64,000 nucleotides of DNA from a virus (lineage: Duplodnaviria; Caudoviricetes). Below the pieces are notes generated by a model, which saw nothing but the letters and a program-made list of their open reading frames with translations, ran no database searches and was not told the origin of the DNA. Made by a program: the position numbers and the translations under genes. The stretch lies in the IMG/VR virus record IMGVR_UViG_3300020036_004254; one strand, written 5' to 3'. Below, piece after piece: positions 10,330-63,135 of this stretch. Numbering within the stretch: position 1 is the first letter of the stretch; each line of letters begins with the position of its first letter.

Positions 10330-11822
10330 GGCCCGTAGTACAGGTCATTAAGAAAAATGATGTATACATGAAGGTTCAGGCAGAACCTTATGTGTTGCAA
10401 GAACTGAGCGATGCGTTTTCGTTCTTTGTTCCGGGCTATCAACACATGCCGAAATACAAGTGTGGTATGTGGTCTGGTAAAATTCAACTGCTTAACATGT
10501 GGACGGGTGAACTCTACTTGGGGTTGTTGCCCAAGCTTCATGCCTTGTGTGAACGGAACGAGTACACTCTGGACAATCAAATCCAGATTACCGCAGATGA
10601 ATTGACCTACGATGATTTCTACGCATTTGTTGAGTCGTTGAATCTCACGGCCCGTGGTGAATCGATTGAGGCCCGGGACTATCAGTTGGAGGCCGCACAT
10701 CAGGCAATTGTGCGTGGGCGAACCCTGTTGTTATCACCAACCGCCAGTGGAAAATCGCTCATCATCTACATGATTATGCGTTGGCATTTGGCCAAAGGTA
10801 GAAAGCAGTTGATTGTGGTACCAACCACCTCATTGGTTGAACAGATGACCTCAGATTTTGCTGATTACGGGTTTGATGTGAAGCATATTCACAAAATCTA
10901 CAGTGGTCAGGAAAAAGTCTATGATGCCCCGGTGATTATTAGCACGTGGCAGAGTATCTATGAAATGCCGGATTCGTTCTTTTCAAACTTTGATGTGATG
11001 TTTGGAGACGAGGCCCACCAGTTTAAAGCAAAGTCGTTGGTATCTCTCTTAGAGAAGAGTGTAGACACTCCATATAAAATCGGGACGACTGGAACCTTGG
11101 ACGGAAGCAAAACCAACAAGATGGTTCTTGAGGGGTTGTTTGGGTCGGTGTTAAGTGTTACGACAACGAAAAAACTGATGGATGCCAATCAAATTGCCAA
11201 GCTGAACATCAAGGTCTTGGTCTTGAAGTATCCAGAGGCAGTACGAAAATCCTTCCGCGATGTTGACCCAGATACCAAACGGGTTAGTAAGAAGAAATAT
11301 AAAGATGAAGTTGATTTTTTGATTTCTCACCCCCAACGCAATCGGTTCATCCGTAATCTTGCTCTTGACCAAAGCACTAACACTCTACTACTGTTCACGT
11401 ATGTGGAGAAACACGGGAAGTTGTTGTACGATATGATTCAAGAGAAGGCTGGGTCGCGCAAGGTATTTTTTGTCCACGGAAAGGTAGACACGGAAACCAG
11501 AGAACAGATTCGTGCTATCACAGAAAAAGAGACAGATGCTATTATTGTTGCGAGTTCTGGTGTGTTTTCGACGGGTGTGAATATTCGTAACATCCATAAC
11601 ATCATTGCCGCATCCCCAACAAAATCCCGCATTCGAAATCTTCAATCTATTGGCCGTGGGTTGCGTTTGGGAGACGAAAAAAATTCGTGTACGCTGTATG
11701 ACATTGGCGACGACTTGTCATGGAAGAGCAGACAAAATCACACCTTACTTCACTTAGCAGAAAGGATAACCATATATAATGAAGAGTCATTTTCCTACCG
11801 AGTCATCCCCGTCCCCCTTTAG
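10326..11822 (+). CDS. uvsW: SF2 helicase UvsW
   Basis: SPTASGKS, DEAH, QSIGRGLR. Confidence 0.95.
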   Translation: MRPVVQVIKKNDVYMKVQAEPYVLQELSDAFSFFVPGYQHMPKYKCGMWSGKIQLLNMWTGELYLGLLPKLHALCERNEYTLDNQIQITADELTYDDFYAFVESLNLTARGESIEARDYQLEAAHQAIVRGRTLLLSPTASGKSLIIYMIMRWHLAKGRKQLIVVPTTSLVEQMTSDFADYGFDVKHIHKIYSGQEKVYDAPVIISTWQSIYEMPDSFFSNFDVMFGDEAHQFKAKSLVSLLEKSVDTPYKIGTTGTLDGSKTNKMVLEGLFGSVLSVTTTKKLMDANQIAKLNIKVLVLKYPEAVRKSFRDVDPDTKRVSKKKYKDEVDFLISHPQRNRFIRNLALDQSTNTLLLFTYVEKHGKLLYDMIQEKAGSRKVFFVHGKVDTETREQIRAITEKETDAIIVASSGVFSTGVNIRNIHNIIAASPTKSRIRNLQSIGRGLRLGDEKNSCTLYDIGDDLSWKSRQNHTLLHLAERITIYNEESFSYRVIPVPL

Positions 11823-48877: not shown

Positions 48878-48906
48878 TTGACAAACGCAGGAAGGGGGTG
48901 TAAGAT
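48878..48906 (+). promoter_or_regulatory. Sigma70-like promoter at the start of the RNA island
   Basis: TTGACA-N17-TAAGAT. Confidence 0.75.
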
Positions 48907-48931: not shown

Positions 48932-49087
48932 GTGGAATACAGCGAAATGATTGAGCGATTGCACCATGTGCTAGCGAGGTTGGATGGCGAGACACGCAAG
49001 TTCTCCGAGGGTGAAGTGAAGAGACAGTTTTTGAAAGATTTAGACGCGGTAGAATGGGCCATCAAGATTGTAGAAGAGAATCAGTAG
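48932..49087 (+). CDS. Hypothetical protein
   Basis: GTG start after GGGGG RBS. Confidence 0.45.
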   Translation: MEYSEMIERLHHVLARLDGETRKFSEGEVKRQFLKDLDAVEWAIKIVEENQ

Positions 49088-49093
49088 TATCAC

Positions 49094-49168
49094 GGGAGGT
49101 TCGCCTAGCGGCTATGGCACTTGTCCTACACACAAGTATAACCGTGGGTTCGAGTCCCACACTTCCCA
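49094..49168 (+). tRNA. tRNA-Val(TAC), C33
   Basis: GGGAGGT/ACTTCCC acceptor; CTTGT-ccTACac-ACAAG; TTCGA T-loop. Confidence 0.88.
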
Positions 49169-49170
49169 TT

Positions 49171-49313
49171 TGGTTCGATACACCAGCCTCGCCAGAGGCG
49201 TGAATGCAGATGACGTACCCGTGTCCTGTCGCTAACGGCGAAATCTAGTACTGCATTCTGTAAGGGAGCGTTATCGACGTAAGGAACCACACGCTGACAT
49301 GGGTGGTTCGCCA
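49171..49313 (+). ncRNA. Candidate pseudoknotted ncRNA
   Basis: GAATGCAG/CTGCATTC, GAACCAC/GTGGTTC, ACCCGTGTC/GACATGGGT pairings. Confidence 0.5.
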
Positions 49314-49317
49314 ATTT

Positions 49318-49400
49318 GGAGAGTACCGCGAAACGGTTTGCAAGTGGACTTGAAATCCATGGACACCGCAAGGTGTGGGGTTCGATTCCTCTACTCTCCT
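49318..49400 (+). tRNA. tRNA-Ser(TGA)
   Basis: GGAGAGT/ACTCTCC; GTGGA-ctTGAaa-TCCAT; long variable arm. Confidence 0.88.
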
Positions 49401-49407
49401 CTGAAGG

Positions 49408-49476
49408 TTTTCTGTGGTGAAATGGAGAACACCCTCTGCTAGCGGGGGATTGTGGGTTCGAGTCCCACCAGAAAGA
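49408..49476 (+). ncRNA. tRNA-shaped RNA with collapsed anticodon loop
   Basis: TTTCTG/CAGAAA acceptor, D arm, canonical T arm; loop only 4-6 nt (GCTAGC). Confidence 0.6.
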
Positions 49477-49672
49477 TGAAGCACCCCTTGACAAACGCAA
49501 TGTAAGGGGTTATGCTATAGAAGTGTTTATTGACAACTGAAGATAGTAGTGTACGTTTAGGTACACCCATTACCTACCATGGTGCCGTGTTGACATTGTT
49601 GGTATCACATCAACACCAGCGCAAGCTGTGTGATATCGATTGGGGGTTCTCCATTCATCCTAAATGGAATAT

Positions 49673-49755
49673 ACCGCCATGGCAAAATGGCAAAGCGCCG
49701 CACTTAGGATGCGGAGTCCGAAAGGGCATTGTGGGTTCGAGTCCCACTGGCGGTA
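49673..49755 (+). tRNA. tRNA-Leu(TAG)
   Basis: ACCGCCA/TGGCGGT; CCGCA-ctTAGga-TGCGG; variable arm. Confidence 0.9.
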
Positions 49756-49757
49756 CT

Positions 49758-49853
49758 GTGACTGTGATGGAACATGATAGACATAGGGAAAGGACAATCC
49801 CGGAAGAGAAATTCCAAACGCTCTTCGTATCGGTTTGAATCCGGTCGGTCACG
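49758..49853 (+). ncRNA. Leu-type tRNA-shaped RNA with non-canonical anticodon loop
   Basis: GTGACTG/CGGTCAC; GGGA-AAGGACAA-TCCC; long variable arm; ATCGG-TTTGAAT-CCGGT. Confidence 0.6.
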
Positions 49854-49948
49854 TTGAAACAACCTTGTAGTACAAATTACCGTTCAGCATGAGCGAGGGG
49901 TGATACTGGCCAGTAAGCCCACGGTCCATGCGTTTAACCCGAACTACG

Positions 49949-50004
49949 GGCGATATCCTGTAGTGGTTAGAAGATGGGGCGTTCGATTCCCCCAACGGTC
50001 GCTA
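49949..50004 (+). ncRNA. Mini tRNA-like element lacking an anticodon arm
   Basis: GGCGAT/GTCGCT ends, TAGTGGTT D-loop, GTTCGATTC T-loop. Confidence 0.45.
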
Positions 50005-50132
50005 TATCGTCCGTCCCTCATGGTTGGGACGTTAAACAAAGGCCAGAATCGTTGTGTGTCCCTTGAGAAGGAACACTCTGGTAAGTGGGGATAGTGCCAT
50101 AATGCAATCTGACTGGTTGCAAACCCCTTCAC

Positions 50133-50207
50133 GCGCTCATCGAATTTAACGGTTAGTTCAACGGACTTTTAATCCGTATGGTGGGGGTTCGAATCCCTCT
50201 GGGCGCA
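50133..50207 (+). tRNA. tRNA-Lys(TTT)
   Basis: ACGGA-ctTTTaa-TCCGT; GCGCTCA/TGGGCGC. Confidence 0.9.
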
Positions 50208-50283
50208 TTGTACAGTCGAACGTGTCAGCACACACCTAGCTAAGTACGAGGGGCCGTTCCTTGTAACTGTACATTCTCAGGAC

Positions 50284-50312
50284 TTGACAAACACCACATC
50301 CGGTGGTACTAT
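50284..50312 (+). promoter_or_regulatory. Sigma70-like promoter
   Basis: TTGACA-N17-TACTAT. Confidence 0.75.
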
Positions 50313-50456
50313 ACGGAGGTCGGAAGACCATAAATTCCCTCTCGTTCTCAATTTCAAGTCTGACGAACGGTTGATTAATGACTTGGTGCGAACTCCACAG
50401 CAGAAGCGGTTGCCTTAAGACAGTAAGCGCAACATTGAGTGGGGAAACTGTCACAT

Positions 50457-50531
50457 GGCGCATTGGTGTAATAGGCTAACACGCAGGATTTTCACTCCTG
50501 AGACTTACGAGTTCGAGCCTCGTATGCGCTA
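50457..50531 (+). tRNA. tRNA-Glu(TTC)
   Basis: CAGGA-ttTTCac-TCCTG; GGCGCAT/ATGCGCT. Confidence 0.85.
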
Positions 50532-50602
50532 TTAGGACAAAAAGACAACAAAAGTAGAGAGTTCGACTCGTATAAATACTAGCAACCTCATCAGGAGCTA
50601 GT

Positions 50603-51382
50603 ATGGTTGTAAAGTGTAAATGTGGAGCGGACTTTGAGAATGTCGGTAAATATGGGATTCGTAAGTTTTGTTCGCGGAAGTGTGCCAACAGCCGTGGACC
50701 GAGAACAGAGGAAACCAAGAGAAAGCAATCAATGTCTCTTGTTGGTCGTAATGTTGGTGGAAAACTCGCCAACCCACTTCTCAAAGAGAAAAGAAAATGT
50801 TTAGGGTGTGATAGCAAATTTGAGTGTTACAAAAAAGCATCCAAACGTTGGTGTTCTCTTAAGTGCAGTAAGAAACTCTCTGGTGGGTACAGGGAGGGTT
50901 CTGGGAACGGGAAGTCTGGGTGGTACAAAGGAATCTTCTGCAATTCTAGCTATGAATTAGCATGGGTGGTTTATCGCTTAGACCACGGATTTGAAGTGAA
51001 AAGATTCTCGGGGTACTTGACTAATGGTGTGTTGAAGTATTATCCTGATTTCATCGTGGGTGACAAACACATTGTTGAGATAAAGGGGTACCATCGTAAA
51101 GAGGTTGATGAGAAGACCGAGCTTGCTAAATCTTTGGGATATGTGATAGATGTCCTATACAAGACAGATTTGCGGGAGTGTTTTGATTGGATACAAACAA
51201 AGTATCACACGAAAAATGTCATCAGCCTTTATGACAACCGAAAACCGAAATTTAGTTATAGATGTCATTTCTGTGGTAAGGATATCTACAGAGAACAAAG
51301 ATTAAAGGGGAAAGTGGCCTTTTGTTCCCGTGTGTGTGCGGGTAAGGGTATACTGAACCGAAAGAATGTTGGGCCGACTTGA
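50603..51382 (+). CDS. Zinc-finger-repeat plus PD-(D/E)XK (TnsA-like) endonuclease
   Basis: FCSRKC repeats; SSYE..YYPDF..VEIKG; own late promoter at 50571. Confidence 0.75.
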   Translation: MVVKCKCGADFENVGKYGIRKFCSRKCANSRGPRTEETKRKQSMSLVGRNVGGKLANPLLKEKRKCLGCDSKFECYKKASKRWCSLKCSKKLSGGYREGSGNGKSGWYKGIFCNSSYELAWVVYRLDHGFEVKRFSGYLTNGVLKYYPDFIVGDKHIVEIKGYHRKEVDEKTELAKSLGYVIDVLYKTDLRECFDWIQTKYHTKNVISLYDNRKPKFSYRCHFCGKDIYREQRLKGKVAFCSRVCAGKGILNRKNVGPT

Positions 51383-51460
51383 ATTATCCTTGCAGGGATT
51401 AGGAGAGGAGGTAAGACACAACGTTGACGAAAGGACTGCAATCCCAAGTCTCATACGTTG

Positions 51461-51530
51461 ATTTTCGTAGCCAAGCGGTCACGGCACCCCCATTGCAGGG
51501 GGCATCGTAGGTTCGAATCCTACCGGAAAT
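51461..51530 (+). ncRNA. Gln-like tRNA-shaped RNA with a 6-nt anticodon loop
   Basis: ATTTTCG/CGGAAAT; GCC-AAGCGGTCAC-GGC; CCCCC-ATTGCA-GGGGG; GTAGG-TTCGAAT-CCTAC. Confidence 0.65.
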
Positions 51531-51533
51531 ATT

Positions 51534-51685
51534 GTTGCGGGATAAGCTCCGTGACAAGCTGGATAGTACAGATAAGAATAGGGTTGGTGAGACTAACCTA
51601 GTGTAAATGCGAACTCTCACTAGGCGCACCAGCATGACGTAATACTCAAACAGGTGTCGCAACCAAGTAGAGTTCTGTATTGTCC
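51534..51685 (+). ncRNA. Candidate pseudoknotted ncRNA
   Basis: GGATAGTACAGA/TCTGTATTGTCC, CCTAGTG/CACTAGG, loop GAACTCT/AGAGTTC. Confidence 0.5.
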
Positions 51686-51689
51686 TTTT

Positions 51690-51761
51690 GCTCTACAAAC
51701 ATAGATGGCGATGTACGGGTTTTGTAAACCTGAAAGGGCAGTTCAAGTCTGCCGTGGAGCT
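51690..51761 (+). tRNA. tRNA-Thr(TGT)
   Basis: CGGGT-ttTGTaa-ACCTG; GCTCTAC/GTGGAGC. Confidence 0.88.
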
Positions 51762-51763
51762 TA

Positions 51764-51870
51764 GGATGGTTTCTCAGGGGGAACACAGACTTCTTGGCGG
51801 AAGTCCAAGCCCCATTCCACGGTGTGCGCCAACGCACCGCGAACAAGGTCGATGCCCTTGGAAATCGTCC
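51764..51870 (+). ncRNA. Kissing-loop ncRNA candidate
   Basis: GGATGGTTTC/GAAATCGTCC closing stem; hairpin loops TTGGCG and CGCCAA are exact complements. Confidence 0.6.
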
Positions 51871-52067
51871 AACTCATTGGGAGGTTGTGGTTTAGGGAAA
51901 CAAGGTTCTTGACGGAGCCTCAAGCCCCATCCGTAAATGTGCGTCAACACGTTTGTATTCGGACAGCAAAGGAGTCATCGACTCTGCACCTGACTGCTAC
52001 CGCTACATTACATCGGGTCTGGGGGAGTCCCTATTGCAAAAGGTATAAAGAACCTGTCCCCCTCCAC

Positions 52068-52140
52068 GCACTGGTAACTCAACTGGCAGAGTATCCGCCT
52101 CTTAAGCGGAAAGTTATGGGTTCGACTCCCATCCGGTGCA
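52068..52140 (+). tRNA. tRNA-Lys(CTT)
   Basis: TCCGC-ctCTTaa-GCGGA; GCACTGG/CCGGTGC. Confidence 0.92.
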
Positions 52141-52398
52141 TTGTTTGAAAATGATATACTCTGGAAAAGAAGAATTTACATTTCTTACACTCTTGAAGGG
52201 AAAGAAAGAACGTATACACCAGACTTCTTTCTACCAAATGAAAATTTGTACTTAGAAGTAAAGGGATACTTTTCAGAAATTGACAAGAAAAAGATTGATG
52301 TTGTATCAAAGATAATACCGATAAAGCTTGTGTTCAAAAAACATCTAGATAGGTTGAAAACAATTTCAACGATTGATGAACTTCTTGGCGTTTTATAG
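52141..52398 (+). pseudogene. PD-(D/E)XK nuclease-domain remnant
   Basis: YTPDF..YLEVKG; abuts the tRNA-Lys 3' end; no RBS or N-terminal domain. Confidence 0.6.
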
Positions 52399-52407
52399 AA
52401 CAACTGA

Positions 52408-52480
52408 CGGCGTGTAATTCAATGGTCAGAAATTTCGTCTTATATACGAAAAGTTGTGGGTTCAATTCCCACCACGCCTA
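52408..52480 (+). tRNA. tRNA-Ile(TAT)
   Basis: TTCGT-ctTATat-ACGAA; GGCGTG/CACGCC. Confidence 0.8.
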
Positions 52481-52484
52481 CTTT

Positions 52485-52573
52485 TGTCAAGTGTGGGAAA
52501 ACTCCTTAGCGGGGGCTAGGTCGGTTGGTATGCCGACAGGGTTCGAATCCTATACAACACCCGACACTTGACA
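52485..52573 (+). ncRNA. tRNA-like RNA on a 13-bp extended stem
   Basis: TGTCAAGTGTGGG/CCC-G-ACACTTGACA enclosing three hairpins, the last with a GGTTCGAATCC T-loop. Confidence 0.6.
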
Positions 52574-52579
52574 TATCAC

Positions 52580-52652
52580 GGCTCTATCGTCTAGGGGACA
52601 AGGACACCACCCTCTCAAGGTGGGGACGGCAGTTCGAATCTGCTTAGAGCTA
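52580..52652 (+). tRNA. tRNA-Glu(CTC)
   Basis: CCACC-ctCTCaa-GGTGG; GGCTCTA/TAGAGCT. Confidence 0.9.
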
Positions 52653-52757
52653 TTGGGTTGTGTAACACGGAAGGAACGCCGTGTGACTATATCAAAGCGG
52701 GTGTTAATCTCGCCACAATCCCCACTTGACTTCGATGAAACATGGTAGTATACTTAC

Positions 52758-52831
52758 GCCCTTATAGCTCAGTCCGGAAGAGCGACGGTCTTCGGAACCG
52801 TGCGTCGGGAGTTCAAATCTCTCTAGGGGCA
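52758..52831 (+). tRNA. tRNA-Arg(TCG)
   Basis: ACGGT-ctTCGga-ACCGT; promoter TTGACT-N17-TATACT at 52726-52754. Confidence 0.9.
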
Positions 52832-52853
52832 CTTCATTCATCATGGGGGGGTT

Positions 52854-53261
52854 ATGCAAACGTTTCTACCGTATGCGGACTTTGACAAGACGGCACAGGT
52901 GCTTGACCGTCAGCGGTTGGGCAAGCAACGCATCGAAGCTAAACAGATTTTGCAAAACCTTCTAGAAGAAACAGAGAAGCAGGGGTGGAAGAATCACCCT
53001 GCGGTCAAGATGTGGAAGGGAAGTGAAGGTGTGTTGGCACAGTACGGTGTGGCGATTTGTGCAGAGTGGGTTCGTCGGGGTTACAAAGACAACCAGATGG
53101 CCTACTTTGTTGAGCGTGTCAACAATGCACCAACGCCTACATGGTTGGGTGACAATGCGTTTCATGTGGCGCATCAATCCAATCTGGTACGAAAGAACGC
53201 AGAGCATTACGGAAAGTATTTTCAGGTCACAAACGATTTGCCGTATGTGTGGCCAGTTTGA
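52854..53261 (+). CDS. MSMEG_6728-family pyrimidine-dimer DNA glycosylase-like protein
   Basis: MQTFLPY, LDRQRLGKQRIE, HPAVKMW, HQSNLVRK, YVWP. Confidence 0.85.
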   Translation: MQTFLPYADFDKTAQVLDRQRLGKQRIEAKQILQNLLEETEKQGWKNHPAVKMWKGSEGVLAQYGVAICAEWVRRGYKDNQMAYFVERVNNAPTPTWLGDNAFHVAHQSNLVRKNAEHYGKYFQVTNDLPYVWPV

Positions 53262-53262
53262 G

Positions 53263-53296
53263 TGGTGAGGTAATGGCTCACCAAGGCCACGACGGG
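53263..53296 (+). other. 16S rRNA helix-11-like fragment
   Basis: TGGTGAGGTAATGGCTCACCAAGGCCACGACGGG closely matches recalled bacterial 16S sequence (E. coli ~250-285 region). Confidence 0.75.
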
Positions 53297-53414
53297 CAAA
53301 TTCTCTTTAATCATTCGACCAGTTGATGGAACTGGATTGCCGTACTACGACTACGGTGGTGTCTTACGGACGTTCTCAGTGGGAATGGACGAAGAAATCA
53401 AAATCCATCACTGA

Positions 53415-53485
53415 AGGTCATTCGTCTATCGGTAAGACTTCCGCCTCCAAACCGGAAAAGGTGGGTTCGATTCCTACATGGCCTG
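53415..53485 (+). tRNA. tRNA-Trp(CCA)
   Basis: AGGTCAT/ATGGCCT-G; loop ctCCAaa. Confidence 0.85.
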
Positions 53486-53520
53486 TTGCAGTTTCATCAT
53501 TTCACTTAGTGAGGTTTCAC

Positions 53521-53814
53521 ATGTTTAATCCGCTTTCCGACAACGTTATTATCACCCCTTCAACCGCTTCCGAGACACAGACCGCTGGTGGTTTGTACAT
53601 CCCAGAGACGGCTCAGGCGAACGGTGCCATCACTCACGGTACTGTTGTGGCGGTTGGTCCCGGTCATATCTATGATTCCGGTGTCCGTGGAGAAATGTTG
53701 ACCAAGGTTGGTGATACCGTGTGGTACGCCAAGGGTCATGCGTCAACCATCACGTTGGATGGTAAGCAGTACAAGGTTGTGGCAGAGCGCAACATCTTTG
53801 GGTATCATCGGTAA
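53521..53814 (+). CDS. groES: Co-chaperonin GroES-like
   Basis: PLSDNVII, TAGGLYIPETA, GTVVAVGPG, KVGDTV. Confidence 0.92.
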   Translation: MFNPLSDNVIITPSTASETQTAGGLYIPETAQANGAITHGTVVAVGPGHIYDSGVRGEMLTKVGDTVWYAKGHASTITLDGKQYKVVAERNIFGYHR

Positions 53815-54014
53815 TGAAAGACTTCCTGAAGGACATCGCCGTGGGTTCTGTGGTGATGGTAGTGTCTGGTATGGTTTGGGTTGTAGCGTACCATGTTGTC
53901 AACAATCTAAATCTTTTCGATGATATTTTGATGGGACTATTGGCAATTGCTATTATAATGGCCGCGTCTATCGTTGGTACCATTACGAGGAGCCTATGGA
54001 ATTCGTATCGCTAA
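53814..54014 (+). CDS. Small 2-TM membrane protein
   Basis: Two hydrophobic helices; TAATG coupling. Confidence 0.65.
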   Translation: MKDFLKDIAVGSVVMVVSGMVWVVAYHVVNNLNLFDDILMGLLAIAIIMAASIVGTITRSLWNSYR

Positions 54015-54538
54015 CATTGAAACAGTTAGACCAAGACACCGCAGAAATCAGAACGGTGGTCAATACCGATGTGTTGCTGTCTTTGTTCAGAAAGAAGAGG
54101 GTGAAAGAGGTTGAACTGTTTTATGACAATCTTGGGCAGGAAATTGCAAGACAAATCAATGAGGTATTTGGAAACTGCGAACCAGAGTTTTTCGTAGAAT
54201 CGTTGGGTGACCAACAGCACCGAACGCATCGGGGAACCACGGTACATGGACAAACGTTTGTTTCGGTGCAGTCCGTGGTCAAGGTCTTGCCAGAAGGTGG
54301 GGGCTTGACATACGACCTCTCAACCGCTATCGTTGACCATATCAAGGTGGCGATGCGGGAAGGAACCCCGGTGTTTCCACATACGGCAACATCTTTGTGT
54401 GCAGAGGGTGTGTTGTTTAATGTTCTTCTGACAGACGAAAAGAGAATGGAAGGTCTTTCTTTGGATGAAATTGTTCGAATTGCAACAACGGCGTTGGAAA
54501 AGGAAGTACGAAGGGAAGCTTGGAAAGCGCGGGTATAA
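53996..54538 (+). CDS. Hypothetical protein
   Basis: GAGGAG RBS; stop lies inside tRNA-Gly. Confidence 0.6.
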   Translation: MEFVSLTLKQLDQDTAEIRTVVNTDVLLSLFRKKRVKEVELFYDNLGQEIARQINEVFGNCEPEFFVESLGDQQHRTHRGTTVHGQTFVSVQSVVKVLPEGGGLTYDLSTAIVDHIKVAMREGTPVFPHTATSLCAEGVLFNVLLTDEKRMEGLSLDEIVRIATTALEKEVRREAWKARV

Positions 54539-54600
54539 TTCAGTGGTAGAATGCCGAGTTGCCAACCCGGATGCCGTGGGTTCGAACCCCACTACCCGCT
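54529..54600 (+). tRNA. tRNA-Gly(GCC)
   Basis: GCGGGTA/TACCCGC-T; loop ttGCCaa. Confidence 0.9.
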
Positions 54601-54621
54601 TAACTTTATCATGAGGTCACA

Positions 54622-54834
54622 GTGAAAAACAAAAAGATGTCCAGAACAAAAGTGATAAAGAATCTTCGTGCTATCAGAAGTTTGCTAACCCGTTTGCACA
54701 ACAATGGAAACATTATTGGGGTGGTCACGGAAGAAGACCAAGCCTTGACAGAAGCCATTCGGCTGATTAAGTTAGATATGAAGTCTATCAGCGATAAGAA
54801 GAAATTTGAGAAGTTTGGCATTCGGATATGGTGA
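54622..54834 (+). CDS. Hypothetical basic protein
   Basis: GAGG RBS, GTG start. Confidence 0.5.
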   Translation: MKNKKMSRTKVIKNLRAIRSLLTRLHNNGNIIGVVTEEDQALTEAIRLIKLDMKSISDKKKFEKFGIRIW

Positions 54835-54842
54835 GGACTAAC

Positions 54843-55331
54843 ATGGATATGATTCAGAAGGCTCTGTACTTTGCCGCCAAGAAGCACGGTGACCAGAAAT
54901 ACAGTGACATGCCGTACATGGTACACATTGCGTGTGTGATGAGTGTACTTCAGCGGTACAAGGCTCGTGAGGATGTGATTGTGGCAGGTATCTTGCACGA
55001 TGTGCTGGAAGACACTGACACCACGTATGAGGAGATTGACAACCTGTTTGGTGACCGTGTGGCCAAGTTGGTGTTGGCCGTTACGAACCCAAAAGAGGGT
55101 AGTCGTAAGCAGAAGCACGAGATTCAGTATCCCAAGATTCGTGAAGCGGGGGTGTGGGCGGTTCAGGTCAAACTGGCTGACCGCATCGCCAACGCCGGAA
55201 GCGGTGGCAAGCTTGGGATGTACCAGCGGGAACACGAGACGTTCCGCAAGCACCTGTACGACCGTGGGGATATCATGATTCAGGCCATGTGGAACGAACT
55301 TGAAGAGATTGTTATGGTTCCGGGGTTCTAG
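54843..55331 (+). CDS. HD-domain (p)ppGpp hydrolase-like (SpoT-HD/Mesh1)
   Basis: AAKKHGDQ, PYMVH, LHDVLEDT, VKLADRIAN. Confidence 0.88.
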   Translation: MDMIQKALYFAAKKHGDQKYSDMPYMVHIACVMSVLQRYKAREDVIVAGILHDVLEDTDTTYEEIDNLFGDRVAKLVLAVTNPKEGSRKQKHEIQYPKIREAGVWAVQVKLADRIANAGSGGKLGMYQREHETFRKHLYDRGDIMIQAMWNELEEIVMVPGF

Positions 55332-55715
55332 ATGAAAATCTTCTGTCTAGAAGCTGATGTAGTAAACCCATCCGGGAGAGTCTATCCAAAAGCCGTCTTG
55401 GAAAAGGCGGTAGCGGATTACACCGAAGAGTTTGTTGGGGGTAATAGAGCGTTGGGTGAATTGGGTACTCCTGACGGTCAAGTGGTAAACCTCAAAAATG
55501 TATCACATATCGTTCGTGGGTTTCATTGGGAGGGGGATAAGTTGTTTGCTGACATAGAGGTGTTAAGTACACTCAGTGGAGCTATGGTAAAATCGTTGTT
55601 GGCCAACGGTGTGAAACTACGTGGTTCCATTAGAGGACTGGGTTCGTTGGTGGACTCAATTGTCCAAGACGACTATACCATTTCTTCTATCGATGTGAGG
55701 TTAGATGACAACTAA
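55332..55715 (+). CDS. Truncated gp21 prohead-protease paralogue lacking the catalytic His
   Basis: NPSGRVYP, ALGELGTP (vs GELGHP), VSH, GSIRGLGS (vs VSSRGLG). Confidence 0.8.
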   Translation: MKIFCLEADVVNPSGRVYPKAVLEKAVADYTEEFVGGNRALGELGTPDGQVVNLKNVSHIVRGFHWEGDKLFADIEVLSTLSGAMVKSLLANGVKLRGSIRGLGSLVDSIVQDDYTISSIDVRLDDN

Positions 55716-55977
55716 AACCTTCTACGCCATCTACGATGTGCCTAGCAAGAAGTTCAAAGGTCGTGGGAACGTTCGCGGAGTCCGGTGGACTGATGAACCA
55801 ACCCAGACGTATGACACCATATCACGGGCCAAATCAGCACTCAAGGCTCATCTAAAAGTATGGAACAGATATCCTTGGCTTTCCTCGGTTCAACAGCGTG
55901 ATAAATACTTGATTGTCATTCCGGTGACCGTTAGTTGGGAAGACCATCAAGAAGTGTTAGAAGGAATGTTCGAGTAG
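55705..55977 (+). CDS. Hypothetical protein
   Basis: GAGG RBS. Confidence 0.6.
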   Translation: MTTKTFYAIYDVPSKKFKGRGNVRGVRWTDEPTQTYDTISRAKSALKAHLKVWNRYPWLSSVQQRDKYLIVIPVTVSWEDHQEVLEGMFE

Positions 55978-55980
55978 GGC

Positions 55981-56009
55981 TTGACAAACGAAGGAAGGGT
56001 CACTAACTT
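55981..56009 (+). promoter_or_regulatory. Sigma70-like promoter upstream of the large ncRNA
   Basis: TTGACA-N17-TAACTT. Confidence 0.7.
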
Positions 56010-56016
56010 CCTTTCA

Positions 56017-57013
56017 TGAAGCGGGGAGAACGGGGTGCCTAATCCTCGTCAAGGCGATGCGACACCAGCTATGCCTTGTGGTCCAAGTGTGGACGCCCTG
56101 CACGTTTTCTGAAGGAGTTGTCCTTCAGAGTGGTGGAGGTTCGCTGATTAACAAATGAAAGATGGGGTGTTTGGACTCCATAAGAGCAGTGTGTCGCAAG
56201 ACGCATAAAGGTGTGTATCTTTGTAAGCACCGCTGGCCAAAAGCCAGTTCACCCAAACAAGTCTGACCGAGGGGGTATTCGAACACTCCCGCTTCACTGT
56301 AACGGTGGAGATAGGTCTGAAGAGTAGGTAGAGAAGAAAGCCTCATCGACGCTCCGCAAGGAAAGCGGGTGGGGAAGACTGACAGGTGGTGCTGGGTACT
56401 CTACACAACCAACTATTCGAAGACGGATTGGTAACAGATATACACGCATGTCCAAGGGGTTGCACCCAAGGGCTAGGTGTGATGTCGAAAGGTTTGAGCG
56501 GGGTGCTATTCCAAATAGCCTCGCCCTAAATCTTGACAACAGATTAAGTACCCGGAGCAAGGGGAAAGGTAGCCGTGGAGTGTTGCATTCTGGTATCCAA
56601 AAGATACTGGAACAACTGAGGAAGCACTTCACTCAAAGTTCGTTTAGGGTTAGAAGCCCACAATAATTTGGATATTGCCAAACACAAAAAAGGAAAGACT
56701 TCCTCGGTCTTAACGCGAAAAGTAGCATAATGCCTTCCCGTAAGGAAGAAGGCAGATTCGATGGCCCCAAGCCTGACAATCTTTCATGCAGACTCGCACA
56801 TAATCTCCTAGCGGAGACTAACGGCTCGCAAGGTCGGTGGTAGAGAAAACGTGGAGTAGCGTAAGATGACGGTCACACTGTTCAGACCTTAAAAAGAACT
56901 GCTTCGGTTGTCTACTTCCTTGCGGAAGTGGAAAAGAGGGGAAAGGCTGGTGGGGACACTGGCTCATAATCCCTTGAAAGGACGACTACGGAAGGTGTAT
57001 TCTCAGCCTCCCA
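56017..57013 (+). ncRNA. ~1-kb large structured ncRNA, GOLLD-like
   Basis: No credible ORF; many hairpins with GNRA-type loops; 3' ACTTCC/GGAAGTGGA..AAGGTGTATTCTCAGCCT resembles the recalled GOLLD 3' domain; sits in a phage tRNA cluster. Confidence 0.65.
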
Positions 57014-57022
57014 CAATACTAC

Positions 57023-57098
57023 AGCGCATCGGACTCAAGGTCAGGGTCGCCAGTTTCGGGAACTGGATAACAGGTGGATTCGATTTCCACATGCGCTA
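57023..57098 (+). tRNA. tRNA-Pro(CGG), atypical acceptor
   Basis: CCAGT-ttCGGga-ACTGG; AGCGCAT/ATGCGCT. Confidence 0.78.
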
Positions 57099-57189
57099 TC
57101 GGTGGGTCCGACGAATTGCGGTGTGATGGCCGAATGTTCTGAGGATAAGCCGTACATCAATCATTATCATCACAATATTAGGCGATGTA

Positions 57190-57253
57190 TTTCTCGTGGA
57201 CGAATGGCAAGTCGGCGTAGAACGCATGGCGGGTTCGAATCCCCCCGAGAAAA
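57190..57253 (+). ncRNA. tRNA-shaped RNA with miniature anticodon arm
   Basis: TTTCTCG/CGAGAAA; GAC-GAATGGCAA-GTC; GCG-TAGAA-CGC; GGG-TTCGAAT-CCC. Confidence 0.65.
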
Positions 57254-62446: not shown

Positions 62447-63067
62447 ATGGGTGTATGTAAGCATTGTGGTAAAGGTTTTGATATTTCAGAAAAACCAAAA
62501 GGTTGGATGGCTAATCACACAAGATGGTGTTCTGAAAATCCAAAATCAAAGATTCACAAAGACAATATGATTTTTGCTCGTTCTTGCATTAAAGAACACA
62601 GCAATCAACACATAAAGGCCAAAAAAATAGGAAGTGGCGGCTTTCTTGTTTCAAAGGAAACAAGATTGAAATTGTCGATAGCTGGTTCTAAAAGAAAACA
62701 CACCAAAGAAAGTATTGAAAAAATGAGTGTTTCTGCTCGTCTTTCAAAACACAGAAGACTGAGAAAAAAAATGATTGAGTATAAAGGAATTATGCTTGAT
62801 TCGTCTTGGGAACTAGCTCTTGCAAAAAGATTAGATAAACTTGGTGTGTTGTGGGTCAGACCTGAACCTCTCGTCTATTTCGATAGACAAGGAAAAGAGA
62901 GACATTATTTCCCTGATTTTTTTCTTCCAGAATACAACACATTTCTTGACCCCAAAAATCCACAAGCATATAAAGTACAAAAAGAAAAGATAGACCTTCT
63001 AAACGAACAGTTTTCAAACATTTTCTTCATCAGAACGTTATCTGATGTTGAGAAATATACGCCCTAG
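62447..63067 (+). CDS. Zinc-finger/NUMOD3-like plus PD-(D/E)XK endonuclease
   Basis: CKHC..H..C; KHTKESIEKMS; DSSWE..YFPDF..DPK; TATAAATA at 62414. Confidence 0.78.
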   Translation: MGVCKHCGKGFDISEKPKGWMANHTRWCSENPKSKIHKDNMIFARSCIKEHSNQHIKAKKIGSGGFLVSKETRLKLSIAGSKRKHTKESIEKMSVSARLSKHRRLRKKMIEYKGIMLDSSWELALAKRLDKLGVLWVRPEPLVYFDRQGKERHYFPDFFLPEYNTFLDPKNPQAYKVQKEKIDLLNEQFSNIFFIRTLSDVEKYTP

Positions 63068-63135
63068 TATTGGCCCTGACTTCTAATCAGAAGGCGCATA
63101 ACTGGAATATGGGGGTTCGAATCCCTTCTGGGGCA
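63061..63135 (+). tRNA. Rearranged tRNA-Arg(TCT) with D-loop-like sequence after the anticodon arm
   Basis: GCCCTAG/CTGGGGC; CTGA-ctTCTaa-TCAG only ~8 nt after the acceptor; AACTGGA follows it; canonical T arm. Confidence 0.7.

What the first reader, a model, noticed from the sequence alone, without database searches (positions are those of the whole stretch)
49408..57253. Family of tRNA-shaped RNAs with intact D/T elbows but disabled anticodon arms
Seen: 49408-49476 (4-6-nt loop), 49758-49853 (8-nt purine-rich loop, no U33), 49949-50004 (no anticodon arm), 51461-51530 (6-nt loop ATTGCA on a perfect 5-bp G-C stem) and 57190-57253 (3-bp arm). They mostly keep paired acceptor stems and T/D loops. 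Three share a U-rich acceptor (TTTCTG, TTTTCG, TTTCTCG) unlike the decoding tRNAs here. Inference: damage concentrated in the anticodon arm, with paired stems elsewhere, is not what random decay predicts. They may be non-decoding mimics: decoys for anticodon nucleases or tRNA-sensing defences, RelA/T-box ligands, or processing punctuation.
Basis: partly seen in the sequence, partly recalled or inferred. Interest (0 to 1): 0.75.

Follow-up and report, generated by a model that had tools for sequence, protein, structure and literature searches.

The report
Non-decoding tRNA look-alikes in phage array
An uncultured T4-like phage carries, between its ordinary tRNA genes, several RNAs that keep the tRNA shape but cannot read codons; at least three are kept by selection, and they resemble the long-known, still unexplained tRNA-like stable RNAs of phages T5 and T4.

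Summary
Four of the five elements (49408, 49758, 51461, 57190) pair a 7-bp acceptor stem with a T arm. That combination occurs 25 times in the array and nowhere else in the window. The fifth (49949-50004) is mis-bounded: it is the 3' end of a 123-nt four-way-junction RNA (49878-50000).

Relatives do not carry normal 7-nt-loop versions.
- The 51461 element recurs in two other phages with 59 of 60 pair cells intact, 10 of 20 pairs changed on both sides, and a 6-nt loop each time whose sequence is not conserved.
- The 49408 element recurs once, with a 65-nt two-hairpin insert in place of the anticodon arm.
- The 123-nt RNA is 94% identical in another phage, more than any tRNA, and all six substitutions fit the fold.
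- 49758 has at most a doubtful counterpart and 57190 has none.

The elements at 49408, 51461 and 57190 form one family with U-rich acceptors. They are non-decoding tRNA-like RNAs, not fresh pseudogenes.

This is a known kind: T5 RNA1, RNA2 and RNA3 and T4 species 1 RNA. Function is unknown. Having no anticodon loop argues against anticodon-nuclease, RelA and T-box roles.

This scan has reported similar arrays in other phages.

The parts
49408..49476 (+). c1: 69-nt tRNA-like RNA. Acceptor UUUUCUG/CAGAAAG, 3-bp D stem, 6-bp stem capped by a CUAG tetraloop in the anticodon position, canonical T arm, discriminator A. It lies 7 nt after tRNA-Ser(UGA) and just before a sigma-70-like promoter.
   Evidence: The L001 counterpart at 11136-11254 keeps the acceptor, D and T arms with three acceptor pairs changed on both sides. 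Its anticodon arm is replaced by a two-hairpin insert of about 65 nt. c1 is absent at the same junction in L019, L020, L021 and L023.
49758..49853 (+). c2: 96-nt tRNA-shaped RNA with an extra arm. It has a 7-bp acceptor, a 3-bp D-like stem, a 4-bp stem with the 8-nt loop AAGGACAA, a 6-bp hairpin with a 12-nt loop, and a T arm with a UUUGAAU loop. It starts 1-2 nt after tRNA-Leu(UAG).
   Evidence: All 25 proposed pairs are intact. It is an insertion relative to L023. The only possible counterpart, L001 11463-11546, is doubtful. No canonical tRNA is a close relative.
49878..50000 (+). c3x: 123-nt four-way-junction RNA. It has a closing acceptor-like stem, two long hairpins in the D and anticodon positions, and a T arm with a UUCGAUU loop.
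   Evidence: It is 94% identical to L023 1075-1197, more than any tRNA shared by the two phages (54-88%). Of the six substitutions, two are in loops, two form one U-A to C-G exchange, one turns C-G into U-G, and one completes the terminal pair. It has the same layout as T4 rnaC.
51461..51531 (+). c4: 71-nt tRNA-like RNA. Acceptor AUUUUCG/CGGAAAU, tRNA-Gln-like D arm, 5-bp G-C stem with the 6-nt loop AUUGCA, canonical T arm, discriminator A.
   Evidence: Counterparts lie at L023 1524-1596 (loop CAGAUG) and L001 12141-12211 (loop CUUCGC). Across the three, 59 of 60 pair cells are intact, 10 of 20 pairs changed on both sides, and 0 of 500 shuffles reach this. c4 is absent in L021 and L143.
57190..57253 (+). 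c5: 64-nt shortened tRNA-like RNA. Acceptor UUUCUCG/CGAGAAA (7/7 Watson-Crick), 3-bp D stem, 3-bp stem with a 5-nt loop, T arm with one mismatch, discriminator A. It lies 91 nt after tRNA-Pro(CGG).
   Evidence: It was found only in this phage. L001 and L022 have nothing there, and L021 has an unrelated tRNA-Gly(UCC). Its nearest relatives are c4 of L023, L139 and c1.
51391..51446 (+). Conserved hairpin just upstream of c4. The stem UUGCRG/CYGCAA changes on both sides between phages. Together with c4 and the conserved spacer of about 160 nt downstream (51532-51689) it forms one module.
   Evidence: Read directly. W and L001 have UUGCAG/CUGCAA; L023 has UUGCGG/CCGCAA. The flanks are 62-69% identical between phages.

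Best explanation
These are genuine non-decoding tRNA-like RNAs of an uncultured T4-like phage. They are of the same kind as the 'tRNA-like stable RNAs with unknown functions' of phage T5 (RNA1, RNA2, RNA3) and species 1 RNA (rnaC) of phage T4.

Shown:
- They lie on the tRNA strand inside a tRNA array driven by sigma-70-like promoters.
- They keep a tRNA upper half: acceptor stem, T arm and a D element.
- The anticodon position is a sealed stem with a 4- to 6-nt loop, a short stub, or a larger insert.
- In c4, c1 and c3x the stems are kept through changes on both sides while the loop sequences drift.

Inferred:
- They are cut out of the long array transcripts by the host tRNA maturation enzymes (RNase P at the 5' end, 3' trimming, CCA addition) and accumulate as tRNA-sized RNAs that cannot enter decoding.

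My committed guess for the role, at about 30%: they act in trans as upper-half mimics. They would occupy a host factor that reads the acceptor end or the elbow of tRNA, and the family-specific UUCU/AGAA acceptor would keep them from being charged.

Nearly as likely, at about 25%: they are cis processing handles that define the ends of the neighbouring structured RNAs.

c2 and c5 have no confirmed counterpart, so they could be young members or recent pseudogenes.
For: - The T-arm-plus-acceptor signature is confined to the array: 25 hits against 0 elsewhere and 0.09 per shuffle.
- c4 in three phages has 98.3% of cells paired and 10 of 20 pairs changed on both sides. All four helices covary. The loop is 6 nt in all three (AUUGCA, CAGAUG, CUUCGC).
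- c4 is 58-62% identical between phages, the same range as the decoding tRNAs (54-88%).
- c1 in L001 keeps the upper half and has three acceptor pairs changed on both sides. Its anticodon arm is replaced.
- c3x is 94% identical to the L023 copy and all six substitutions fit the fold.
- c1, c4, c5 and a solitary element in an unrelated phage (L139) are mutual nearest neighbours. They share a 5'-WUUYYYG / CRRRAAW-A acceptor.
- The T5 record AY543070 annotates RNA1 and RNA2 as 'tRNA-like stable RNA with unknown functions' and RNA3 as 'putative tRNA-like RNA' inside its tRNA region.
- T5 RNA3 folds with a UUCUGUG acceptor and a 6-bp stem carrying a 6-nt loop. T5 RNA2 has an AUUCUAG acceptor and enlarged arms.
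- T4 rnaC folds as a four-way junction with a canonical T arm.
- Most decoding tRNAs here end in discriminator A followed by YUG with no encoded CCA. c4 ends the same way; c1 and c5 end in A followed by UGA and UGG.
Against: - No expression or processing data exist for this uncultured phage.
- There are only two or three counterparts per element, so covariation rests on very few sequences.
- Any two tRNA-derived sequences show 'compensatory' differences. c4 of L001 is closest to the neighbouring tRNA-Glu, so orthology rests on position and conserved flanks.
- The elements are patchy. c1 is in 2 of 6 relatives examined at that junction, c4 in 3 of 5 and c5 in 1 of 4. They are therefore dispensable.
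- c1 and c2 sit within 1-7 nt of real tRNAs, which makes a pure punctuation role redundant there.
- No binding partner is identified, and no tRNA-related enzyme gene was recognised in the array apart from an HD_4 hydrolase.
- No sequence homology to the T5 or T4 RNAs could be shown.
Confidence: 0.55

Rival explanations
1. They are cis-acting processing handles, like plant mitochondrial t-elements or mascRNA. They recruit RNase P and the 3' tRNA-processing enzymes to cut the long array transcripts where no real tRNA is present. This releases or stabilises the neighbouring structured spacer RNAs, GOLLD or small mRNAs. The tRNA-like piece itself is a by-product.
For: - Only the upper half, which is what RNase P and RNase Z read, is kept. 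The anticodon arm is free to shrink, be sealed or be replaced.
- c4 sits between two conserved structured spacers, and in L143 it is missing together with them as one module.
- c1 ends a transcription unit just before a promoter.
- No intrinsic terminators were found on the + strand of the array, so transcripts are probably long.
Against: - c1 and c2 lie 1-7 nt from real tRNAs that already supply such cuts.
- A shared, unusual U-rich acceptor is not needed for RNase P.
- The anticodon stem of c4 covaries although RNase P does not need it.
- The T5 record annotates RNA1 and RNA2 as stable RNAs and the T4 record annotates rnaC as a small, stable RNA.
Confidence: 0.25
2. They are tRNA pseudogenes in decay. 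They are former decoding tRNAs disabled by small deletions in the anticodon arm, not yet eroded elsewhere, and without function.
For: - Arrays of this clade do contain debris. L001 11551-11590 looks like the 5' half of a tRNA with no partner.
- c5 has no counterpart and c2 at most a doubtful one. c5 has a mismatched T stem.
- Presence among relatives is patchy.
- Homing endonuclease genes that could drive rearrangements lie in the array.
Against: - For c4, c1 and c3x the stems stay intact at 38-42% sequence divergence, or carry only fold-compatible changes.
- The 6-nt loop is kept in three lineages.
- No relative has an intact version.
- All 25 proposed pairs of c2 and 17 of the 18 proposed pairs of c5 are intact.
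Confidence: 0.12
3. They are decoys for anticodon nucleases or ligands for anticodon-dependent sensors (PrrC, RloC, VapC, PARIS AriB, RelA on the ribosome, T-box leaders).
For: Phage tRNAs are known to counter defences that cleave tRNA. This rests on established knowledge of T4 with PrrC and of T5 with PARIS and retron-Eco7, not on anything tested here. The elements keep the overall tRNA shape.
Against: - All of these partners read the anticodon loop or need codon or specifier pairing.
- The loops here are 4-6 or 8 nt, lack U33 and are not conserved between counterparts.
- In L001 the c1 arm is replaced outright.
Confidence: 0.04
4. They are unusual decoders. c1 would be an amber suppressor (CUA), c2 an 8-nt-loop quadruplet or frameshift tRNA, and c4 a tRNA-Gln-like decoder with a shortened loop.
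For: - ARAGORN reads CUA in c1.
- c2 has an 8-nt loop, as +1 frameshift suppressors do.
- c4 has a tRNA-Gln-like D arm and UUG within its loop.
- The array lacks tRNA-Gln, tRNA-His and tRNA-Cys.
Against: - TAG ends 12 of 51 long reading frames, so there is no recoding.
- The 7-nt reading of c1 has G33, and the stable fold is a tetraloop.
- The L001 counterpart of c1 has no CUA.
- The c4 loops differ completely between phages.
- The c2 loop has no U33.
Confidence: 0.03

Closest known systems
Phage T5 RNA3 ('putative tRNA-like RNA') and RNA2 and RNA1 ('tRNA-like stable RNA with unknown functions'), GenBank AY543070
   Same: - They lie inside a phage tRNA region that also holds promoters, HNH endonuclease genes and other stable RNAs.
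- RNA3 is tRNA-sized, with the pyrimidine-rich acceptor strand UUCUGUG and a 6-bp stem carrying a 6-nt loop where the anticodon arm should be. This matches c1 and c4.
- RNA2 (125 nt) has an AUUCUAG acceptor, a canonical T arm and enlarged arms. This matches the L001 form of c1.
- Function is unknown.
   Different: - No sequence homology could be shown.
- T5 is a siphovirus of Demerecviridae, whereas this phage is T4-like.
- T5 RNA3 has an 8-nt T loop, no clear D stem and an encoded CCA.
- In the record, T5 RNA1 and RNA2 are annotated as stable RNAs and RNA3 only as putative. The RNAs here are predictions.
Phage T4 species 1 RNA (rnaC), a small stable RNA at the end of the T4 tRNA cluster
   Same: - It comes from a T4-type phage and sits in the tRNA cluster on the same strand as the tRNAs.
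- It is a 139-nt four-way junction: a closing stem, two long hairpins and a canonical T arm CCGGG-UUCGAAU-CCCGG that runs straight into the 3' strand of the closing stem.
- c3x (123 nt) has the same layout.
   Different: - There is no sequence similarity.
- The closing stem of rnaC is weaker.
- T4 has no counterpart of the short c1/c4/c5 family.
Plant mitochondrial t-elements and the mascRNA / MEN-beta tRNA-like elements
   Same: They are tRNA-like folds with an upper half but no working anticodon, read by RNase P and RNase Z to make RNA ends. This rests on established knowledge; PMC1920247 surfaced but I did not read it.
   Different: They are eukaryotic or organellar and embedded in mRNAs or long non-coding RNAs. 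Processing of the phage elements has not been tested.
Canonical tRNA (Rfam RF00005), in particular tRNA-Gln
   Same: - c1 and c4 pass the Rfam tRNA threshold (36.5 and 48.9 bits).
- The D arm of c4, UAGCCAAGCGGUCACGGCA, resembles that of T4 tRNA-Gln, UAGCCAAGUUGGUAAGGCA.
- Phage tRNA-Gln genes also start with U and have U-rich acceptors.
   Different: There is no 7-nt anticodon loop, no U33 and no conserved anticodon.

Membership tests
Canonical decoding tRNA (Rfam RF00005) | 7-bp acceptor stem followed by a 5-bp T stem with a UUCRANY loop | tested here: met
   c1, c2, c4 and c5 meet it. c2 has UUUGAAU and c5 has one T-stem mismatch. c3x has a 6-7-bp closing stem and a T arm with a bulge.
Canonical decoding tRNA (Rfam RF00005) | Score at or above the Rfam gathering threshold of 29 bits | tested here: inconclusive
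   c1 scores 36.5 and c4 48.9 bits and pass. c2, c3x and c5 give no hit even at E<=10.
Canonical decoding tRNA (Rfam RF00005) | 7-nt anticodon loop with U33 and a purine at 37, and an anticodon conserved among orthologues | tested here: not met
   The loops are 4 nt (or 7 nt with G33) in c1, 8 nt in c2, 6 nt in c4 and 5 nt in c5. c3x has none. The c4 loops are AUUGCA, CAGAUG and CUUCGC in three phages.
Amber-suppressor tRNA (for c1, called CUA by ARAGORN) | TAG read as sense in the genome | tested here: not met
   TAG ends 12 of 51 reading frames of 150 codons or more, and long genes are intact under table 11.
Amber-suppressor tRNA (for c1, called CUA by ARAGORN) | CUA kept in the orthologue within a 7-nt loop with U33 | tested here: not met
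   The L001 counterpart has a two-hairpin insert of about 65 nt instead. In the window the 7-nt reading has G33.
Recent tRNA pseudogene | Close relatives carry an intact decoding version at the same site | tested here: not met
   At each site the relatives (L001, L019, L020, L021, L022, L023, L143) have either the same non-decoding form or nothing. L021 has a tRNA-Gly(UCC) at the c5 position, but it is unrelated in sequence.
Recent tRNA pseudogene | Stems erode at the neutral rate | tested here: not met
   c4 keeps 59 of 60 pair cells at 58-62% identity. All six c3x substitutions fit the fold. This cannot be tested for c5, which has no counterpart, or for c2, whose only candidate counterpart is doubtful.
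Phage tRNA-like stable RNAs (T5 RNA1, RNA2, RNA3; T4 rnaC) | Encoded within the phage tRNA cluster on the tRNA strand, with a T arm and closing stem but no decoding loop | tested here: met
   for the window. for the T4 and T5 references.
Phage tRNA-like stable RNAs (T5 RNA1, RNA2, RNA3; T4 rnaC) | Accumulates as a discrete stable RNA in infected cells | not testable with these tools
   The phage is uncultured and no transcript data were available.
Phage tRNA-like stable RNAs (T5 RNA1, RNA2, RNA3; T4 rnaC) | Sequence homology to the T5 or T4 RNAs | tested here: not met
   Global alignments give only generic tRNA-level similarity. A blastn of 49000-56900 against 50,697 phage records hit only ordinary tRNA genes.
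t-element / mascRNA-type processing signal | Cleaved by RNase P at the 5' end and by RNase Z at the 3' end, defining the ends of flanking RNAs | not testable with these tools
   Only the anatomy (an intact upper half) and the position between structured spacers are consistent with this.
YrlA / bacterial Y RNA tRNA mimic, tmRNA and viral 3' tRNA-like structures | Match to the Rfam models | tested here: not met
   No such hit at any of the five elements at E<=10. The one weak Tymo_tRNA-like match (18.3 bits, E=5.6) lies on tRNA-Ile at 52414-52503. The only other trace is a 17-bit tmRNA 3'-end match on the T arm and acceptor of the L023 c4 counterpart.

The most novel reading that the evidence does not exclude
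The U-rich-acceptor family (c1, c4, c5, with look-alikes in T5 RNA2 and RNA3 and in an unrelated phage, L139) would be a dedicated counter-defence RNA. It would be an abundant, uncharged, CCA-ended tRNA upper half with a sealed anticodon stem. Its job would be to soak up host antiphage toxins that attack the acceptor end of tRNA, such as CapRel- or FaRel2-type pyrophosphokinases, MenT nucleotidyltransferases or GNAT acetyltransferases. It would work alongside the RelA/SpoT-type HD_4 hydrolase gene that is conserved inside the same array.
Probability: 0.1. Interest if true: 0.85.

Novelty: new variant of a known kind. Interest (0 to 1): 0.5.

Why it matters
Phages T4 and T5 have been known for decades to make stable tRNA-like RNAs from their tRNA clusters, and nobody knows what they do.

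This locus adds three things:
- Comparative evidence from an unrelated, uncultured T4-like clade that such RNAs are under selection for tRNA shape.
- Evidence that the anticodon position is deliberately sealed, with a 6-nt loop kept in three lineages.
- A short family that shares an unusual U-rich acceptor, also seen in T5 RNA2 and RNA3.

That gives a concrete handle for experiments in the tractable phages: mutate the acceptor signature or reopen the loop in T5 RNA3 or RNA2.

It also matters for annotation. tRNA finders either miss these genes or mislabel them, as with the 'tRNA-Pyl' amber-suppressor call here.

Tried and rejected
- Near and distant DNA searches of cultured phages found only ordinary tRNA genes.
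- The nearest held virus record (G001) does not cover the region.
- A metagenome scan with the HD-domain protein returned unrelated HD proteins with no tRNAs nearby.
- IMG/VR pattern scans for the c4 flank and for the c5-type acceptor found only L001 and one unrelated phage, L139.
- A looser T-arm-plus-acceptor pattern mostly returned normal phage tRNAs, among them tRNA-Gln genes with U-rich acceptors.
- A 20-mer from c3x gave no IMG/VR hit and two chance hits in bacterial genomes.
- Several Logan contigs of relatives could not be fetched because the files were too large.
- A 380-nt difference between the window and the near-identical contig L018 turned out to be masked N, not biology.
- I rejected c1 as an amber suppressor and c2 as a quadruplet decoder (see the rival explanations).
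- Orthology of c2 with L001 11463-11546 could not be settled.
- I built no covariance model, because three to six heterogeneous sequences would only have reproduced a generic tRNA model.

Full report
**Setting**

The window is part of an uncultured T4-like phage.
- It encodes a gp20-type portal, a gp46-like SbcC nuclease, a gp41-like helicase and a family-B polymerase 46% identical to cyanomyovirus gp43.
- TATAAATA late-promoter motifs stand before several small genes.
- From 49.0 to 63.2 kb all RNA genes lie on the + strand. There are about 25 tRNAs, a GOLLD RNA (56575-57009, 196 bits) directly before tRNA-Pro, two HNH endonuclease genes and a few small ORFs.
- Strong sigma-70-like promoters sit at 48878, 49488, 50284, 52726 and 54305. 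No + strand terminators were found.

I scanned for a T arm (5-bp stem, UUYRANN loop) followed at once by the 3' strand of a 7-bp acceptor.
- It gave 25 hits in the array and none in the other 48.8 kb of the + strand.
- It gave none on the whole - strand and 0.09 per shuffle.
- Twenty-one hits are decoding tRNAs.

ARAGORN and the Rfam tRNA model see only 49408 (called 'tRNA-Pyl' CUA, 36.5 bits) and 51461 (called 'tRNA-???', 48.9 bits).

- 49408 has a 6-bp stem with a CUAG tetraloop. The alternative 7-nt loop has G33.
- 49758 has an 8-nt loop and an extra 6-bp arm.
- 51461 has CCCCC/GGGGG with the loop AUUGCA.
- 57190 has two 3-bp arms.

The U-rich acceptors are real and are not shared by any decoding tRNA here.

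The fifth element is mis-drawn. The T arm at about 49975-49993 is closed by (U)ACCGUU (49878) pairing with AACGGU(C) (to 50000). The unit is a 123-nt four-way junction, which I call c3x.

**Relatives**

Cultured phages hold nothing similar. Protein anchors next to or inside the array led to syntenic arrays in metagenome contigs.
- L001 is a 127-kb IMG/VR contig.
- L019, L020 and L016 cover the array starts.
- L021, L022, L023 and L143 cover larger stretches.
- Their flanking proteins are 64-79% identical to the window's. Shared decoding tRNAs are 54-88% identical.

**c4 (51461-51531)**

- A counterpart lies between tRNA-Glu(UUC) and tRNA-Thr(UGU) in L001 (12141-12211) and in L023 (1524-1596). 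Conserved flanks surround it in both.
- All three fold as cloverleaves whose anticodon arm is 16 nt rather than 17 nt. The arm is a 5-bp stem with a 6-nt loop, or 6 bp with a tetraloop in L023.
- The loops are AUUGCA, CUUCGC and CAGAUG.
- On the three-way alignment 98.3% of pair cells are paired and 10 of 20 pairs changed on both sides. All four helices are involved, including three of the five pairs of the anticodon stem. None of 500 shuffles reaches this.
- c4 diverges as fast as the decoding tRNAs (58-62% identity) and yet keeps every stem.
- L021 and L143 lack it. In L143 it is missing together with its flanking spacers.
- Caveat: with three sequences, and with c4 of L001 closest in sequence to the neighbouring tRNA-Glu, part of the 'covariation' could reflect replacement by another tRNA-derived copy. 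Even so, three lineages holding a 6-nt loop at the same site is hard to get by decay.

**c1 (49408-49476)**

- L001 has a counterpart at the same junction, between tRNA-Ser(UGA) and the double promoter.
- It keeps the same D and T arms and an acceptor in which three pairs changed on both sides.
- About 65 nt forming two hairpins replace the anticodon arm. Their loops, GGCA and UGCC, are complementary to each other.
- L019, L020, L021 and L023 go straight from tRNA-Ser to the promoter or to an HNH gene.
- TAG ends 12 of 51 long frames, so a CUA suppressor is not called for.

**c3x (49878-50000)**

- L023 carries it at 94% identity, more than any tRNA shared by the two phages.
- Of the six substitutions, two are in unpaired positions and two make one U-A to C-G exchange. 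One turns C-G into U-G, and one completes the terminal pair.
- I found it nowhere else.

**c2 and c5**

- c2 is an insertion relative to L023. A possible L001 counterpart is doubtful.
- c5 is absent from L001 and L022. In L021 an unrelated tRNA-Gly(UCC) occupies that place.
- Nearly all their proposed pairs are intact (25 of 25 for c2 and 17 of 18 for c5). With no confirmed counterpart, selection cannot be shown.

**One family or several?**

- Among all tRNAs and tRNA-likes of the window and four relatives, c1, c4 (window and L023) and c5 are each other's nearest neighbours. A solitary 64-nt element in an unrelated AT-rich phage (L139) groups with them.
- They share a 5'-WUUYYYG / CRRRAAW acceptor, a 3-bp D stem, a shortened or sealed anticodon arm, a 3-4-nt variable region and discriminator A.
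- c2 and c3x are different kinds.

**What is known**

- The T4 record lists rnaC (species 1 RNA, 139 nt) and rnaD beside its eight tRNAs. rnaC folds as a four-way junction with a canonical T arm that runs into the closing stem, which is the c3x layout.
- The T5 record AY543070 lists RNA1 and RNA2 as 'tRNA-like stable RNA with unknown functions' and RNA3 as 'putative tRNA-like RNA'. They sit among tRNAs, promoters, HNH genes and other stable RNAs.
- T5 RNA3 folds with the acceptor UUCUGUG and a 6-bp stem with a 6-nt loop. T5 RNA2 has the acceptor AUUCUAG, a canonical T arm and enlarged arms.
- The architecture is therefore precedented, including the U-rich acceptor and the 6-nt loop. No sequence homology can be shown.
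- GOLLD is known to sit in tRNA islands with HNH genes and pseudo-tRNAs and to form RNA cages (PMC6582537; bioRxiv 10.1101/2024.12.08.627333).
- A survey of phage structured RNAs mentions tRNA-like candidates without assigning a function (PMC10690425).
- Earlier notes of this scan report similar non-decoding arrays in many other phages.

**How it most likely works**

Shown:
- the position within promoter-driven tRNA units;
- an intact upper half;
- a sealed or replaced anticodon arm;
- fold-preserving evolution for c4, c1 and c3x.

Inferred:
- Maturation by RNase P, 3' trimming and CCA addition. Most decoding tRNAs here end in discriminator A followed by YUG with no encoded CCA. c4 ends the same way, and c1 and c5 end in A followed by UGA and UGG.
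- The products cannot pair with codons. This argues against roles as anticodon-nuclease decoys, RelA activators or T-box ligands.
- What remains is anything that reads the acceptor end or the elbow.

My committed guess is a trans-acting upper-half mimic (about 30%).
- The unusual acceptor is shared across unrelated phages, which a simple RNase P handle would not need.
- The T5 record annotates RNA1 and RNA2 as stable RNAs and the T4 record annotates rnaC as a small, stable RNA.

A cis processing handle (about 25%) fits c4, which lies between two conserved structured spacers. It is redundant for c1 and c2, which abut real tRNAs.

Decay (about 12% overall, higher for c2 and c5) is contradicted for the three conserved elements.

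**Verdict**

The finding is real and mostly correct in what it saw, and over-reaching in the roles it proposed. It is a new variant of a known but unexplained kind of phage RNA.

Noticed in passing
window 49169-49316: The spacer of about 145 nt between tRNA-Val(UAC) and tRNA-Ser(UGA) is conserved in L001, L019 and L016, with shared blocks such as GGTTYGATACACCAGCC and CACACGCTGACATGGGTGGTTC. It looks like a structured RNA of its own.
   Followed up: no
window 49545-49672: The leader between the promoter at 49488 and tRNA-Leu(UAG) is conserved in the more distant L021 (8310-8454). It gives a weak rncO-like Rfam hit (17 bits), so it may be an RNase III-type processing structure.
   Followed up: no
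window 52482-52562: An odd 81-nt element abuts tRNA-Ile(UAU). ARAGORN at a low threshold calls it 'tRNA-???'. Its UUCGAAU loop has only a 3-bp stem, and GUGUGGG pairs with CCUAUAC. A similar element follows tRNA-Glu(CUC) in L143 (about 866-935).
   Followed up: partly
window 54828-55331: A RelA/SpoT-type HD_4 hydrolase gene (60.7 bits, motif ILHDVLEDT) sits inside the tRNA array. It is present in the relatives that cover this stretch (L001, L021, L022, L143). It could be a small alarmone hydrolase, which would be relevant to defences that use alarmone synthetase-type toxins.
   Followed up: partly
window 50603-51382: An HNH endonuclease gene with its own TATAAATA late promoter is inserted directly after tRNA-Glu(UUC). 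L001 and L023 lack it at this site, and the last codons of the gene overlap the conserved spacer start TGTTGGGCC. This looks like a homing insertion.
   Followed up: partly
window 56575-57009 and L001 16904-17338: The GOLLD RNA is 84% identical between the window and L001, more than any shared tRNA (55-73%). In the window and in L001, L021, L022 and L143 it ends about 10-14 nt before tRNA-Pro(CGG). L143 4431-4501 is a tRNA-like fold just upstream of tRNA-Pro, where GOLLD would be expected; GOLLD itself was not searched for in L143.
   Followed up: partly
window 49317-49400: tRNA-Ser(UGA) is missed by ARAGORN at default settings. In Rfam it scores best as tRNA-Sec (41.6 bits, below threshold). 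It is an ordinary long-arm tRNA-Ser.
   Followed up: yes
L001 11136-11254: In the enlarged c1 counterpart the two hairpin loops are GGCA and UGCC. They are perfectly complementary, so an intramolecular kissing contact is possible. In the window, the c1 loop CUAG and the c4 loop UGCA are self-complementary.
   Followed up: no
L139 5069-5131 (IMGVR_UViG_3300022555_000024): A solitary 63-nt tRNA-like element lies between ORFs in an unrelated AT-rich 112-kb phage. It has the acceptor UUUCUUG/CAAGAAA, D and T arms, and no anticodon arm. It still scores 49.8 bits with the Rfam tRNA model.
   Followed up: partly
L001 11551-11590: This is a 5' half of a tRNA (acceptor strand, D arm, start of an anticodon stem) with no 3' partner. 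It is a true tRNA fragment, which shows that debris also exists in these arrays.
   Followed up: no
L001 13437-13512 and 19762-19837; L021 14449-14524; window 63061-63135: These are tRNA genes with a normal acceptor and T arm but a rearranged core. ARAGORN misses them. They carry plausible anticodon loops (Ile GAU type, Arg UCU).
   Followed up: no
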